Virus record (IMG/VR): IMGVR_UViG_3300037504_000379
Length of the DNA stretch: 20,000 bases
Origin: an uncultured virus (IMG/VR IMGVR_UViG_3300037504_000379)
Lineage: Duplodnaviria; Heunggongvirae; Uroviricota; Caudoviricetes; Crassvirales
Direction: 5' to 3' (one strand)
Made by a program: the position numbers and the translations under genes. This document shows positions 1,646-9,418 of the stretch, piece after piece. The notes beneath the pieces are model-generated. The model had not been told where the DNA came from and made no database searches. It saw nothing but the letters and a program-made list of their open reading frames with translations. The stretch's first letter is position 1. Each line of letters opens with the position of its first letter.

Positions 1646-1841
1646 CCTCTATTCAACTGAAACAACAAAGGATGTTAAACGTATAATGTTTAACGTTGCT
1701 GAGGCAGAATACCGGACTAAACTTGTTCTTTTAAAATATAGAATTGAGCCGGATAAATTTAAACGAGCTGCTTCTCTTTTGTGGAGACTTGTATTAAATT
1801 ATTATAGTCCGCAAAAGGTAAAACCAACGAATTTATTTTAA
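1638..1841 (+). CDS. hypothetical protein, paralog of 3269..3424 (start may be ATG 1686)
   Basis: Duplicated at 3269-3424 with many synonymous changes. Confidence 0.7.
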   Translation: MYNLYSTETTKDVKRIMFNVAEAEYRTKLVLLKYRIEPDKFKRAASLLWRLVLNYYSPQKVKPTNLF

Positions 1842-1872
1842 ACACTTAAAACCCATTATTATGAAAACACAA
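1659..1872 (+). repeat. 214-bp direct repeat, copy 1
   Basis: Aligns without gaps to 3242-3455 (offset 1583); last ~75 bp identical. Confidence 0.95.
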
Positions 1873-1959
1873 ACAATTAAAAAAGACTTAGTAATTTACA
1901 AAATAGTAGCCTTTGCGCTTATTGTTGCGGCTACTACGTTTTTAATGATTGCCTTTTAA
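1861..1959 (+). CDS. small single-TM membrane peptide (32 aa)
   Basis: MKTQTIKKDLVIYKIVAFALIVAATTFLMIAF*; basic N-terminus plus hydrophobic stretch; ATTATG start. Confidence 0.6.
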   Translation: MKTQTIKKDLVIYKIVAFALIVAATTFLMIAF

Positions 1960-1996
1960 ACCATTCTAAACGGGGGTTCGATTCCTCCGTATGGTT
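1959..1996 (+). other. tRNA T-arm-like hairpin (not a full tRNA)
   Basis: CGGGGG-TTCGATT-CCTCCG stem-loop enclosed by AACCAT/ATGGTT. Confidence 0.6.
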
Positions 1997-2016
1997 CTAA
2001 CCAAAAACCAACGCTT

Positions 2017-2238
2017 ATGGATTACATTTATAAAAACAAGCCTAGAAAATCAAATAAGTTTGGAGCGATGAGTTTATATTATGACGGTATTTATTATTTC
2101 CCTTCTGATATAAAAGAATCTGACAAACGAAAAGACAAGCCTTTTGAAATACAAGGCGTTTATTATAGAGGTAAATGGTATCAAGATACTTTTTATATAA
2201 CAAATGAATTTAGGGAGTTTCTTTTAAATGCCCTATAA
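2017..2238 (+). CDS. hypothetical protein; stop codon lies in the TAAC box of the first attC-like site
   Basis: ORF track; TAA 2236-2238 is part of CTATAAC. Confidence 0.7.
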   Translation: MDYIYKNKPRKSNKFGAMSLYYDGIYYFPSDIKESDKRKDKPFEIQGVYYRGKWYQDTFYITNEFREFLLNAL

Positions 2239-2330
2239 CGGGCGAGTGTATGGCAATGTAAGCCACGCACTAAACTTTGAATTGAAACAATAACCTAACT
2301 GGCTTATTTGCTATACACATTGTTAGCAAC
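2233..2330 (+). repeat. attC-like site A1
   Basis: CTATAAC(2233) - arm GTGTATGGCAATGTAAGCCA (2246-2265) / arm TGGCTTATTTGCTATACAC (2300-2318) - GTTAGCAAC(2322). Confidence 0.8.
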
Positions 2331-2356
2331 TGGGCGGTTTTAAAAACGAAAATATT

Positions 2357-2650
2357 ATGATGTACGCAAGTAAAATAGAAGTAAAGTATGAGCCACAAAA
2401 AGTCAGATATCAACGAGAAGTAGAGCTACCCGATAGACTACTTACACTTGAAGATATAGGTAAGCACCTAAAGGAAGGTGAAAAGTTTGTATTCTTCCAA
2501 CGTGAAGAGGGTGGGCTTGGACTACCTGTTGATTACATAAGCATACATGGTTACAGGCTTGAAACTGATGAGGAAGTAAAAGCAAGGGTAGCGAAAGCAG
2601 AAAAGTATAACGAAAACTACGAGAAGTTTCATGCGAAGTACAGAAAGTAG
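2357..2650 (+). CDS. cassette-borne hypothetical protein
   Basis: ORF bracketed by GTTAGCAAC (2322-2330) and its complement GTTGCTAAC (2655-2663); C-terminal RLETDEEVKARVAK. Confidence 0.85.
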   Translation: MMYASKIEVKYEPQKVRYQREVELPDRLLTLEDIGKHLKEGEKFVFFQREEGGLGLPVDYISIHGYRLETDEEVKARVAKAEKYNENYEKFHAKYRK

Positions 2651-2654
2651 CCTT

Positions 2655-3146
2655 GTTGCTAACGGCACACAGCTATGAGTAGTGCGGGAATTACAGCACT
2701 GACTTTGATACGAGTATTAACCGCTCCCGCTTCTTTTTTAAGCGTGGGCATAAATATAAATAAAGATGAAAAAACAGATTACAGTAAAAGAAAGAAACAG
2801 TTGGGAAGGCGAAACATTTAATTATGTAATATATGTTATTCCCGAAGAAGAAAACCAAATTCGTGAAAAATGCGAGAAATATGGCGATGGTAGTTTAACG
2901 GTGCAAGAAACCAACTACACCGATGAAGAAATAAAAAAGATGAATGCAGCATCCAGCAACTTATATATGGACTTTATAGCACCGTATGAATTAAAGGGAA
3001 ACGCACTAAAAAAATGGGAAGAATTTGGTGATTGCTTTTACAAAGGTGTTGGTTTAACAAAATTAAAAGCGTTGGAAGAAAAAGAAGCACAGCACTAACC
3101 TTACTACGAGCTACGACACCCGCATTACTCATAGCTGGTGTTGTAG
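2655..3146 (+). repeat. attC-like site A2 whose loop contains a whole gene
   Basis: GTTGCTAAC - arm CAGCTATGAGTAGTGCGGG (2670-2688) / arm CCCGCATTACTCATAGCTG (3119-3137; 18/19 complementary) - GTTGTAG (3140). Confidence 0.8.
2766..3098 (+). CDS. hypothetical protein nested inside attC-like loop
   Basis: ORF track; flanked by GCAC-N9-TACGAG direct repeats at 2693-2714 and 3089-3110. Confidence 0.85.
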   Translation: MKKQITVKERNSWEGETFNYVIYVIPEEENQIREKCEKYGDGSLTVQETNYTDEEIKKMNAASSNLYMDFIAPYELKGNALKKWEEFGDCFYKGVGLTKLKALEEKEAQH

Positions 3147-3168
3147 CATCGTTTTAATGTACTACAAC
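3140..3168 (+). repeat. empty cassette palindrome with CGTTTTAATG loop
   Basis: GTTGTAG-CAT-CGTTTTAATG-TA-CTACAAC. Confidence 0.75.
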
Positions 3169-3241
3169 ATATGAATAAAGAAAGGTGTTTTTAAAATTGC
3201 GGTAAAATGAAACAGAAAATTATTGACAGAATAGAAGAAAC

Positions 3242-3455
3242 GAAACAACAAAGGACGTTAAACGTATAATGTTTAATGTTGCTGAAGCTGAATTTAACAG
3301 TAAGCTTGTTCTTTTAAAATATAGAATTCAACCGGATAAATTTAACAGAGCCGCCTCTCTTTTATGGAAACTTATATTTAATTATTATAGTCCGCAAAAG
3401 GTAAAACCAACGAATTTATTTTAAACACTTAAAACCCATTATTATGAAAACACAA
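3242..3455 (+). repeat. 214-bp direct repeat, copy 2
   Basis: Aligns to 1659-1872. Confidence 0.95.
3269..3424 (+). CDS. hypothetical protein (51 aa), paralog of 1638..1841
   Basis: MFNVAEAEFNSKLVLLKYRIQPDKFNRAASLLWKLIFNYYSPQKVKPTNLF*. Confidence 0.65.
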   Translation: MFNVAEAEFNSKLVLLKYRIQPDKFNRAASLLWKLIFNYYSPQKVKPTNLF

Positions 3456-4643: not shown

Positions 4644-4946
4644 ATGAAAACAATAAATTGGCACAATGCTAAAAACAATGAAAAAGGATATTACAAAGAT
4701 GATAACGGAAAAGTCTTTTATTTTAATCCTGCTAGCTATTTAAATTTTACAAGTGATAACGATCAGGATTCATATGATTTTTGGATGACAAATACAGGAA
4801 CTTTAGTAAGAGATAAAAACGATTATTTTGTTTTCTCAGAAATTGGCATTAAAGACGCTTTACGGGATGCAGCCGAACATGAAACTGATATTTCTAACCT
4901 GGCTAAGAAGATGAAAGAGTATGCAGACGAAGTTTTACACGATTAA
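4644..4946 (+). CDS. hypothetical protein
   Basis: ORF track; ATTATG start. Confidence 0.8.
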   Translation: MKTINWHNAKNNEKGYYKDDNGKVFYFNPASYLNFTSDNDQDSYDFWMTNTGTLVRDKNDYFVFSEIGIKDALRDAAEHETDISNLAKKMKEYADEVLHD

Positions 4947-5040
4947 CGGTCACAATCCGTATAAATTCAGAGTGGAACGGAGCGTAAAAAGCTCTTTTAA
5001 TGAAGCTAATTAAATGTTAAACTAAAAAATTAAATGCTTT

Positions 5041-8552: not shown

Positions 8553-8694
8553 GAATATTCAACGTTTACGTATATGACCTATTTGGGATTTGAAATACTA
8601 ACTTATAAAAACGAAATAAAGATGAAAAACGATACAAAAAAACAAAATAGCACCGACACCCAAATGGGTTATAATACGGTGTTATCAGCCGTGC
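8553..8694 (+). repeat. attC-like site B1
   Basis: GAATATTCAAC - arm CGTATATGACCTATTTGGG (8569-8587) / arm CCCAAATGGGTTATAATACG (8659-8678) - GTTATCAGCCGTGC (8681). Confidence 0.8.
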
Positions 8695-8843
8695 TTTCAG
8701 ATAATTATCTGCACTTTGAAACGATTGATGGTGTTGACGGCTGTGTAAGAAAATGTGATTTAGAAAACTGCATTTATCAAACATCATGTCCATTTTTTGC
8801 AAAATGCTATGACAAAAAAAGAGCTGTGCTTTTGCATGGCTGA
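8622..8843 (+). CDS. small Cys-rich protein starting inside attC-like loop B1 and reading into the cassette
   Basis: MKNDTKKQNSTDTQMGYNTVLSAV... with C-x2-C-x4-C-x4-C-x5-C; stop TGA inside GGCTGATAAC. Confidence 0.6.
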   Translation: MKNDTKKQNSTDTQMGYNTVLSAVLSDNYLHFETIDGVDGCVRKCDLENCIYQTSCPFFAKCYDKKRAVLLHG

Positions 8844-9350
8844 TAACGGACAGCAATAAGAAACGTGCGAAATTACGCACAAAACTAAATACGAGTACTA
8901 ATTAAAAAATAAAAAAGCGATGGATTTACCAATGAGCAAAGATTACTCACAAATTAGAGTAGAATTAGGAATTAACGCACAGAAGTTTATACAACAGGTG
9001 CAAATTAACAACCAAACTATTGAAGATCAGATAGCAAAAGGCATAGAATTAGCTATAAATGACATAACCGAAGAGGATAATTTTGTGCAAGCAATACGGC
9101 ACAACACAAAGAAAGAGCTTGAAAATATAGTAAACCAAACCGTAATGAGCTGGGAGGTTAAAAACAAAATTACAAAACTGGTTGCAGAAAAGATTGAAGC
9201 GAAGGTAGAAGCCTATGCCGACCAAATTGCAGAGAAAGTAACAAGTAGCTTGAAATAGTGCGTGGGCTTTTATTTTTTAATTGCTCAATTACGCACCAAA
9301 GCTGATACGAGAACGAAAAGTAAGCATGTTTTTTATTGCATGTTAGCTTT
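8834..9350 (+). repeat. attC-like site B2 whose loop contains a whole gene
   Basis: GCATGGCTGATAAC - arm GCAATAAGAAACGTGC (8853-8868) / arm GCATGTTTTTTATTGC (9324-9339) - GTTAGCTTT (9342). Confidence 0.8.
8920..9258 (+). CDS. helical hypothetical protein nested inside attC-like loop
   Basis: ORF track; flanked by AATTACGCAC-N9-TACGAG direct repeats (8871-8895, 9287-9311). Confidence 0.85.
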   Translation: MDLPMSKDYSQIRVELGINAQKFIQQVQINNQTIEDQIAKGIELAINDITEEDNFVQAIRHNTKKELENIVNQTVMSWEVKNKITKLVAEKIEAKVEAYADQIAEKVTSSLK

Positions 9351-9418
9351 TCGTTTTAATGAAAGCTAACGAAAGTGTAAAGAACGTTTTAATGTTCTTT
9401 ACAGTGTGTTAAATGTTC
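9342..9418 (+). repeat. empty cassette plus minimal attC-like site B3, both with CGTTTTAATG loops
   Basis: GTTAGCTTT-T-CGTTTTAATG-AAAGCTAAC, then GAAAG-TGTAAAGAAC-GTTTTAAT-GTTCTTTACA-GTGT-GTTAAATGTTC. Confidence 0.8.

What the first reader, a model, noticed from the sequence alone, without database searches (positions are those of the whole stretch)
2233..3168. Array A: site - cassette gene - site with nested gene - empty cassette - truncated site
Seen: the ORF 2017 stop lies in CTATAAC. Site A1 is followed by gene 2357..2650 between GTTAGCAAC and GTTGCTAAC. The 19-nt arms at 2670 and 3119 enclose gene 2766..3098. An empty 29-bp palindrome follows (3140-3168), then CAAC-atatgaa-TAAAGAA, which resembles the left half of site B3 (TAAC-gaaagtg-TAAAGAA) without a right arm. 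Inference: the array was truncated on its 3' side close to the duplicated segment.
Basis: partly seen in the sequence, partly recalled or inferred. Interest (0 to 1): 0.75.

Follow-up and report, generated by a model that had tools for sequence, protein, structure and literature searches.

The report
Phage gene cassette loaded inside hairpin
A phage carries two swappable gene units joined at folded-DNA sites like those of bacterial integrons. One unit keeps its gene inside the hairpin loop and leaves the usual gene slot empty, a layout that may help show how such cassettes first pick up genes.

Summary
The features are real. They are two complete cassettes of an integron-like system of Bacteroidota and their phages. 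Each unit runs from one AAC to the next (2237-2660, 2661-3165), and both recur elsewhere between other neighbours, breaking at that AAC.

Cassette 1 is a hairpin followed by a gene. Cassette 2 holds gene 2766 in the centre of a standard hairpin loop, and its 29-nt 'empty cassette' is its own capped body. The same frame holds two other genes elsewhere. Homologues of gene 2766 also end like ordinary-body cassettes (protein ends only).

Related arrays end at a one-armed site just upstream of a ~266-aa tyrosine recombinase that lacks the IntI insertion; the window has none. Genes lie on the folding strand, opposite to classical integrons.

The likeness of the last AAC to site B3 is at chance level. 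Still, 3188-3253 looks like the orphan start of a third cassette, and gene 2017 has lost its hairpin, so the array is broken at both ends. No recombination was demonstrated.

One site of this family is in print and failed with IntI1. This scan noted the layout before on other DNA.

The parts
2017..2238 (+). Remnant of a cassette gene: from about 2030 it matches the 3' part of a cassette gene elsewhere and keeps that cassette's closing box (CCCTAT-AAC). Its own hairpin and N-terminus are missing and replaced by another start.
   Evidence: 192 of 210 nt identical to L005 up to the AAC. In L005 and L006 the gene is longer and preceded by a hairpin ending GTTATAGGG. L007 is a 67% homologue with no cassette box.
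2237..2324 (+). Hairpin site A1 (88 nt, AAC to GTT), front part of cassette 1. The inferred crossover is in the AAC at 2237-2239.
   Evidence: In L002 likeness starts exactly at this AAC; L003 carries a more diverged copy of the site.
2325..2660 (+). Body of cassette 1 with gene 2357-2650 (97 aa, no Pfam or PHROG family), closed by complementary boxes GTTAGCAAC / GTTGCTAAC.
   Evidence: Same unit in L002 (92% aa) and L003 (76% aa), followed there by different sites. No family hit.
2661..3142 (+). Hairpin site A2 (482 nt) with 19-nt arms 2670-2688 / 3119-3137. The single mismatch is the family's G.T wobble. Four loop repeats lie at 2695, 2713, 3091 and 3109 (18-nt phase).
   Evidence: Same frame in L001, L009, L325.
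2729..3088 (+). Cargo module in the loop centre, between repeats 2 and 3: a possible inner 10-bp stem (2729-2738 with 3079-3088) and the direct motifs GCGTGGG (2742) and GCGTTGG (3069).
   Evidence: The inner stem is inferred from complementarity; a local hairpin competes with it in the + strand fold.
2766..3098 (+). Gene nested in the A2 loop (110 aa, conserved family of unknown function). Its last roughly 9 codons belong to the frame, not the cargo.
   Evidence: 37 homologues. Three unrelated cargo proteins in this frame all end in KEA. No Pfam, PHROG or Atlas hit.
3140..3168 (+). Empty body of cassette 2: box stem closed by the cap CGTTTTAATG, ending in the terminal AAC (3166-3168).
   Evidence: 112 distinct copies of this 29-nt pattern in viral contigs. 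The same body follows the A2 frame in L009 and L325.
3169..3187 (+). 19 nt of unclear origin, not recognisable as a left arm or as the attI-like site.
   Evidence: Position-weight test. A follows the AAC here, while G follows in 43 of 46 true sites.
3188..3253 (+). Probable orphan body of a third cassette: leader and first ~15 codons (ATG 3207). Its hairpin is missing, and it is cut where the second copy of the 214-bp repeat begins, at a 12-nt overlap (3242-3253).
   Evidence: In runs X2 and X3 (two studies) this stretch follows a GTTGTGTGC box, and the same contig goes on to a B2-like site. Overlap shown.
3242..3455 (+). Second copy (90% identical) of the 214-bp repeat at 1659-1872; the right border of the imported segment.

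Best explanation
This is an orphan piece of a cassette array of an integron-like system used by Bacteroidota and their phages.

(1) Shown by comparison: the mobile unit runs from one AAC to just before the next and carries its hairpin in front of its body.
(2) Inferred: the coding (+) strand folds as single-stranded DNA and is cut in the 5'-arm AAC, as the bottom strand of attC is. The excised unit is a closed dumbbell whose central box is flanked by two stems, each with a conserved G.T wobble.
(3) Association shown, activity inferred: the enzyme is a ~266-aa tyrosine recombinase without the IntI insertion, encoded just behind a one-armed attI-like site at the end of related arrays. The window encodes none, so these cassettes could move only with enzyme supplied in trans.
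(4) Shown: either loop of the dumbbell can hold the gene. Cassette 1 is body-loaded. Cassette 2 is loop-loaded, and its unused end is closed by the same 10-nt cap that closes the loop of gene-free minimal sites.
(5) Inferred: cargo is exchanged between frames across short shared flanks.
(6) Inferred: this array fragment entered the phage by homology in gene 2017 and a 12-nt microhomology at 3242-3253, not by site-specific insertion, which is why both ends are broken.
For: Breakpoints at the AAC in L001, L002, L003, L009 and L325 and in contig loose ends.

In 408 sites, opposed non-Watson-Crick bases on the + fold are G.T 581 times against A.C 97 times. The longest ORF is on + in 296 of 307 ordinary cassettes and in 48 of 50 long-loop, empty-body sites (2 had none).

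Of 57 distinct recombinase loci with at least 1 kb upstream, 56 have a site, 49 have two or more, and 50 have the terminal AAC within 60 nt of the start codon. The complete phage that carries cassette 1 (G002) encodes the recombinase behind its array.

A gene sits in the loop in 42 of 58 cap-bodied cassettes against 2 of 343 filled-body ones; the 50 loop genes fall into 48 families. Body stems, not selected beyond position 8, pair at positions 12-14 in about 80% with a G.T at position 11 in 69% of 275. Removing the inserts from A2 and B2 leaves 116 and 114 nt, inside the main length class.

Of 50 homologue sequences of gene 2766, 8 end in the loop frame (two of these are the window's own protein and L001's) and 17 end in NER, the ending given by an ordinary GTTAGCGTT body.
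Against: No recombination, excised circle or single-stranded fold was observed. Sites were selected for complementary arms, so arm-pairing figures are partly circular, and many loci were selected for the cap. In the recombinase-linked loci, not selected that way, only 3 of 172 cassettes are loop-loaded, one of them probably a false call.

AAC:GTT does not pair in the linear fold of A1. A2 is 482 nt against 57-141 nt for described attC sites (PMC5371416), so it may fold and recombine poorly.

The DNA context of the NER-ending homologues was not seen; 0 of 401 plus 0 of 401 genomes searched held the gene. The shared GCG..GG flanks occur at both ends in only 9 of 48 loop-loaded and 4 of 274 body-loaded cassettes. 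The G.T bias fits RNA folding equally well.
Confidence: 0.75

Rival explanations
1. The hairpins act mainly as RNA structures (5'-3' pairing around each small gene, for stability or processing), and the modules spread by ordinary homologous recombination between the repeats.
For: The folding strand is the coding strand and G.T equals G.U. Stems close right at stop codons. Ribozyme-like elements lie nearby: twister-like at 4939-5013 and hammerhead-like behind the L006 array.
Against: Breakpoints fall at the AAC triplet, not spread over the repeats. Arrays abut a recombinase through a fixed-distance half-site. Box complementarity links the two ends of each unit, as a DNA circle requires. No Rfam family matches the sites.
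Confidence: 0.1
2. These are ordinary attC sites for classical IntI integrases, picked up from a host integron (a CALIN).
For: AAC/GTT box, hairpin, G.T skew towards the cut strand as in attC (PMC5027507, passages). A site of this family is published as attC in Polaribacter phage P12002L (PMC9892861, Table S3).
Against: That site, attC1, was the only one of six that gave no verified junction with IntI1 (PMC9892861). 300 of 408 arms have no bulged base, and the spacing is AAC-N8-10-TA against TA-N6-GTT. Genes are on the folding strand. The linked enzymes score 112-137 bits on TIGR02249 (cut-off 265) and lack about 48 residues of the IntI insertion region.
Confidence: 0.07
3. The nested gene is a separate small mobile element that inserted into the loop and duplicated its target (the 24-nt direct repeats around it).
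For: Direct repeats at 2693-2716 and 3090-3114, and similarly around gene 8920.
Against: The repeats are copies 1-2 and 3-4 of the 18-nt-phased loop repeats, at the same distances from AAC and GTT as in the gene-free site B1. The cargo has no transposase and differs in 48 families. An insertion would not explain why the body is empty.
Confidence: 0.04
4. For the 3' end only: the last AAC is the array's natural end (attI-like or secondary target), and ATG 3207 is the first codons of a lost recombinase or an unrelated gene.
For: A, not G, follows the AAC, as at many terminal positions. 38 nt to an ATG is within the 32-53 nt range of recombinase loci. L325 ends with the same cassette followed by AAC-ATAT.
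Against: Score -16 on the attI-like matrix, whose members have a median of +14. No recombinase likeness anywhere in the window. 3188-3253 sits behind a cassette box in two other studies, although the right arm seen there lacks the usual TA-N6-GTT spacing.
Confidence: 0.3

Closest known systems
Classical integrons (IntI, attI, attC cassettes; Nivina 2016 PMC5027507, Loot 2017 PMC5371416, passages read)
   Same: Tyrosine recombinase next to a one-armed insertion site; tandem cassettes; AAC/GTT box; a hairpin site with G.T skew to one strand; the crossover inferred in the 5'-arm AAC of that strand.
   Different: The recombinase lacks the IntI insertion; most arms lack extrahelical bases and have an uneven spacer; genes lie on the folding strand, behind their hairpin; whole genes occur inside the terminal loop (site 482 nt against 57-141 nt); empty ends carry a shared cap.
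CALINs in virulent phages, especially Polaribacter phage P12002L attC1 (Qi et al. 2023, PMC9892861; main text parts 1-4 of 7 and supplement part 1 read)
   Same: P12002L attC1 has the same cap in its loop and the same spacing, so it is a minimal site of this family. No integrase lies nearby.
   Different: The paper treats it as an ordinary attC. It did not recombine with IntI1. In the parts read there is no cognate enzyme, no loop-borne gene and no empty body.
Inverted integron-integrase group (Treponema and others; Cury 2016 PMC4889954, passage read)
   Same: Integrase gene in the same direction as the cassette genes.
   Different: There the integrase is a true IntI turned round relative to attC. 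Here the enzyme keeps the classical position relative to the folding strand and the genes are the inverted part.
Cellulophaga phage Ingeline_1 integrase locus (MT732435; Bartlau et al. PMC8776804, passages read)
   Same: A 35% identical recombinase, preceded by a loop-loaded cassette (gene 27 inside a 363-nt site, gene-free body) and a terminal AAC 46 nt before the start codon.
   Different: Annotated only as an integrase taken to indicate a temperate life style; 'integron', 'attC' and 'cassette' occur 0 times in the main text.

Membership tests
Classical integron / attC cassette | Conserved AAC/GTT triplet box with complementary extension closing each cassette | tested here: met
   Both cassettes are closed by 9-bp boxes (one mismatch in cassette 2). 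AAC:GTT pairs in the circular folds, P 0.94/0.80/0.55 for cassette 2; it does not pair in the linear fold of A1.
Classical integron / attC cassette | Unit moves as a whole with the crossover in the triplet | tested here: met
   Comparative only: L001, L002, L003, L009, L325.
Classical integron / attC cassette | Extrahelical bases on the arm opposite the cut AAC | tested here: not met
   300 of 408 sites have no bulge; 30 bulges on the 3' arm, 82 on the 5' arm. A2 has none. A G.T wobble is conserved instead.
Classical integron / attC cassette | Site length 57-141 nt, gene-free terminal loop | tested here: not met
   A1 is 88 nt (fits); A2 is 482 nt with a 110-codon gene inside. Range from PMC5371416.
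Classical integron / attC cassette | Cassette gene on the strand opposite the recombining (bottom) strand, site behind the gene | tested here: not met
   Genes lie on the G.T-favoured strand in 296 of 307 ordinary cassettes; the hairpin travels in front of the gene.
Classical integron / attC cassette | IntI integrase with the additional domain | tested here: not met
   Four linked enzymes score 112-137 bits against the cut-off 265 of TIGR02249, in two stretches. In L428, 30 residues span what takes 78 in VchIntIA, PDB 2A3V. None in the window.
Classical integron / attC cassette | attI site between array and integrase gene | tested here: inconclusive
   A conserved one-armed site lies 32-53 nt before the recombinase in 50 of 57 related loci; its function is untested and the window's terminal AAC does not match it.
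Classical integron / attC cassette | Recombination of a folded single strand with replicative resolution | not testable with these tools
   Needs a strand-delivery assay. A family member failed with IntI1 (PMC9892861).
CALIN (cluster of attC sites lacking an integrase) | Two or more sites in a row with no integrase nearby | tested here: met
   Two sites here, three at 8560-9411, no recombinase in the 20-kb window. The rest of this genome was not available.
Structured RNA family in Rfam 15 | Covariance-model match over the sites | tested here: not met
   No match up to E 5 overlaps 2233-3168.

The most novel reading that the evidence does not exclude
The cassette of this system is a two-ended dumbbell whose two apical loops are equivalent loading points. 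The shared cap is the unloaded state, and genes are captured into, or moved between, the two loops inside a pre-made frame. Loop-loaded and body-loaded versions of one gene would then be products of the cassette-making reaction itself, which is unknown for all integrons, and the cultured phage Ingeline would let it be assayed.
Probability: 0.25. Interest if true: 0.88.

Novelty: new variant of a known kind. Interest (0 to 1): 0.66.

Why it matters
How integron cassettes are first made is described as largely unknown (PMC5371416, passage). Here the frame and the cargo are visibly separable. One frame holds at least three unrelated genes, one gene family appears to occupy two different slots, and the unused end has a fixed cap.

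The system also explains a published negative result: a Polaribacter phage 'attC' that IntI1 would not use belongs to a family with its own recombinase. It suggests that some 'integrases' read as signs of lysogeny in flavobacterial phages, such as Ingeline's, are cassette recombinases. Long loop-loaded sites are likely to be missed by attC models built on short loops.

For this window, the array is an orphan with cargo of unknown function.

Tried and rejected
Ideas tested and dropped:
- ATG 3207 as the start of a lost recombinase: no likeness, and the stretch looks like a cassette body elsewhere.
- Flanking direct repeats as a target-site duplication: rejected.
- A fully blank dumbbell (minimal site plus empty capped body in one unit): none convincing; the three 'blank' calls look like chance hits.

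Searches that gave nothing useful:
- A relative without the array: the 67-aa repeat ORF found one weak viral hit and none in metagenomes. The 27-nt tail pattern found 0 stretches in metagenomes; only chance-level hits in cultured phages and one weak hit that is not a cassette leader. Run X4 covers the flanks but has no cover over 1948-2495 and 2770-3043; without a joining contig this shows nothing.
- Cargo function: no Pfam or PHROG family for genes 2017, 2357, 2766. The Atlas gave nothing for 2766; for 2357 an unnamed viral cluster (0.90) and DarA_C at 0.77, a lead only. No match in cultured phages for 2200-3250 or protein 2766.
- DNA context of NER-ending homologues: not found in the 401 + 401 genomes searched.
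- No RNA holder listed. No tRNA. Promoter-like sites not above shuffles, and Bacteroidota promoters are not covered by that scan. No whole genome is held for this window.
- No structure or complex prediction was run.

Literature: ten full-text searches gave no description of loop-borne genes, the cap or this recombinase as a cassette enzyme. The library lacks most subscription papers. I did not see the Dryad annotation file or part 2 of the supplement of PMC9892861, nor any bioRxiv supplement; these could bear on the claim of novelty.

Full report
Setting. The window is phage-like DNA of about 33% GC with a sliding clamp, UDG, RNA ligase and HNH genes. A run that may be its source is labelled tidal flat metagenome. 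A Bacteroidota host is inferred because most genome records holding the same sequence pattern are of that phylum. No whole genome is held.

Observation. The 18-of-19 arms are expected about 0.015 times by chance and the assembly is continuous over 1843-3409. A crude scan for such sites was not above shuffles (8 against 1-8), and AAC:GTT does not pair in the linear fold of A1. The case therefore rests on homologous loci.

The mobile unit. Gene 2357 recurs in L002 and L003 with its hairpin in front. Likeness starts at the left AAC (exact in L002; L003's site is more diverged) and ends at the next AAC, where other sites follow. Site A2 with gene 2766 recurs behind a different cassette in L001. 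The same frame holds unrelated genes in L009 and L325, each followed by the same empty body; a full site follows in L009 and none in L325. Contigs of other runs join the frame's two halves across other letters. So the units are 2237-2660 and 2661-3165, and the 29-nt element is the body of the second.

Family survey. From all loci of at most 9 kb I called 659 sites; 412 had a matching closing box and 408 remained after a coordinate filter. A gene of 40 or more codons lies in the loop in 42 of 58 cap-bodied cassettes and in 2 of 343 filled ones; the 50 loop genes form 48 families. Many of these loci were selected for the cap; in recombinase-linked loci 3 of 172 cassettes are loop-loaded.

Strand and geometry. 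G.T outnumbers A.C 581 to 97 on the + fold, genes are on +, and 300 of 408 arms have no bulge. In classical attC the G.T-rich strand is the recombining bottom strand and genes lie on the other (PMC5027507, passages). Both stems beside the box carry a conserved G.T: position 11 of the body stem (69% of 275) and position 9 from the TA of the arms (82% of 166 medium sites, 71% of 63 long ones). The one mismatch in A2's arms is this wobble. The repeats flanking the nested gene are the site's own 18-nt-phased loop repeats; taking out the insert leaves 116 nt, the commonest class.

One gene, two slots. Of 50 homologue sequences of gene 2766, 8 end in the loop frame (including the window's own and L001's), 17 end in NER and 25 end otherwise. 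NER is what the closing box of an ordinary GTTAGCGTT body encodes in L009. Loop and body frames of this sub-family share about 15 nt before and 10 nt at the end of the gene. Both endings occur within one 90% cluster. I did not see the DNA of the NER forms, so their position in bodies is inferred.

The enzyme. Eight loci holding a cap pattern also held a tyrosine-recombinase ORF; in L020, L291 and L343 it starts about 50 nt after the last AAC on the same strand. A search with their alignment gave 80 viral loci, to which L427 and L428 were added. Four had no ORF call, one was a duplicate and 20 had under 1 kb upstream. Of the remaining 57, 56 have a site upstream and 50 end in a conserved one-armed sequence 32-53 nt before the start. 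Two of five records behind the cassette homologues encode it, including the complete phage with cassette 1. It falls far below the IntI cut-off and lacks about 48 residues where IntI has its insertion. The window has no trace of it. The cultured Cellulophaga phage Ingeline_1 has a 35% homologue with a loop-loaded cassette in front.

The two ends. Gene 2017 matches a cassette gene of L005 and L006 from about 2030 to the AAC but lacks its hairpin. The 19 nt after the last AAC are not distinguishable from background as arm or attI-like site; 110 of 442 AACs in the window are followed by TAW at 5-8 nt. In two other studies 3188-3253 follows a cassette-type box and precedes a B2-like site, and it ends in a 12-nt overlap with the 214-bp repeat. 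I read this as an array fragment brought in by homology at one end and microhomology at the other (about 0.6); a natural terminal AAC remains possible (about 0.3).

Literature. Qi et al. 2023 (PMC9892861; main text parts 1-4 of 7, supplement part 1 of 2) list a Polaribacter phage site with this cap and spacing, the only one of six without a verified IntI1 junction. That their bottom strand equals our + strand I infer from the primer order of their control, since the colour marking is not visible. Passages only were read of PMC5027507, PMC5371416, PMC4889954, PMC8618304, PMC9024848 and PMC8776804. The last two reviews of distribution report integrons in Bacteroidota, rarely. Ten searches found no account of loop-borne genes or of this enzyme as a cassette recombinase. 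Earlier notes of this scan describe the same layout and enzyme type on other genomes; one is marked as partly fallen, without detail. I used them as leads and tested the points above myself.

Verdict. A real, probably orphaned piece of an integron-like system. It works like an integron by inference but fails several defining tests of the classical family. New variant of a known kind; interest 0.66.

Noticed in passing
window 8560-9411: A second array of the same system: site B1 (gene 8574-8843 has an in-frame ATG in the loop and reads through the right arm), B2 with gene 8920-9258 in its loop and an empty capped body, and minimal site B3 with the cap in its loop.
   Followed up: partly
window 4939-5013 (+): Twister-P3 ribozyme-like sequence overlapping the stop of ORF 4644-4946; 32.9 bits, E 0.0018, below the family's gathering score of 39.9.
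   Followed up: no
window 1959-1996 (+): Hairpin with a tRNA T-loop-like sequence just upstream of gene 2017 (z -2.7); ARAGORN finds no tRNA.
   Followed up: partly
window 1659-1872 and 3242-3455: 214-bp repeat at 90% identity bracketing the array; the first copy lies in a 67-codon ORF (1638-1841), the second lacks that ORF's start.
   Followed up: partly
L006:1825-1880: A hammerhead-ribozyme-like three-stem fold begins right after the last AAC of that array; the core motif was recognised from recall, not from a database match.
   Followed up: no
L430:3145-3968 (Cellulophaga phage Ingeline_1): Two-cassette array with a loop-loaded cassette and a terminal half-site directly upstream of the annotated integrase in a cultured phage.
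   Followed up: partly
L002:2316-2885: A cassette that appears to carry a gene in its loop and another in its body at once (read by eye).
   Followed up: no
L287, L310, L329 (host genomes): A longer (~395 aa) tyrosine recombinase lies on the opposite strand near cap-pattern matches; in L310 it ends about 60 nt from the empty body.
   Followed up: no
site set: Site lengths cluster near 40, 62, 80 and 117 nt, steps close to multiples of the 18-nt loop repeat.
   Followed up: no
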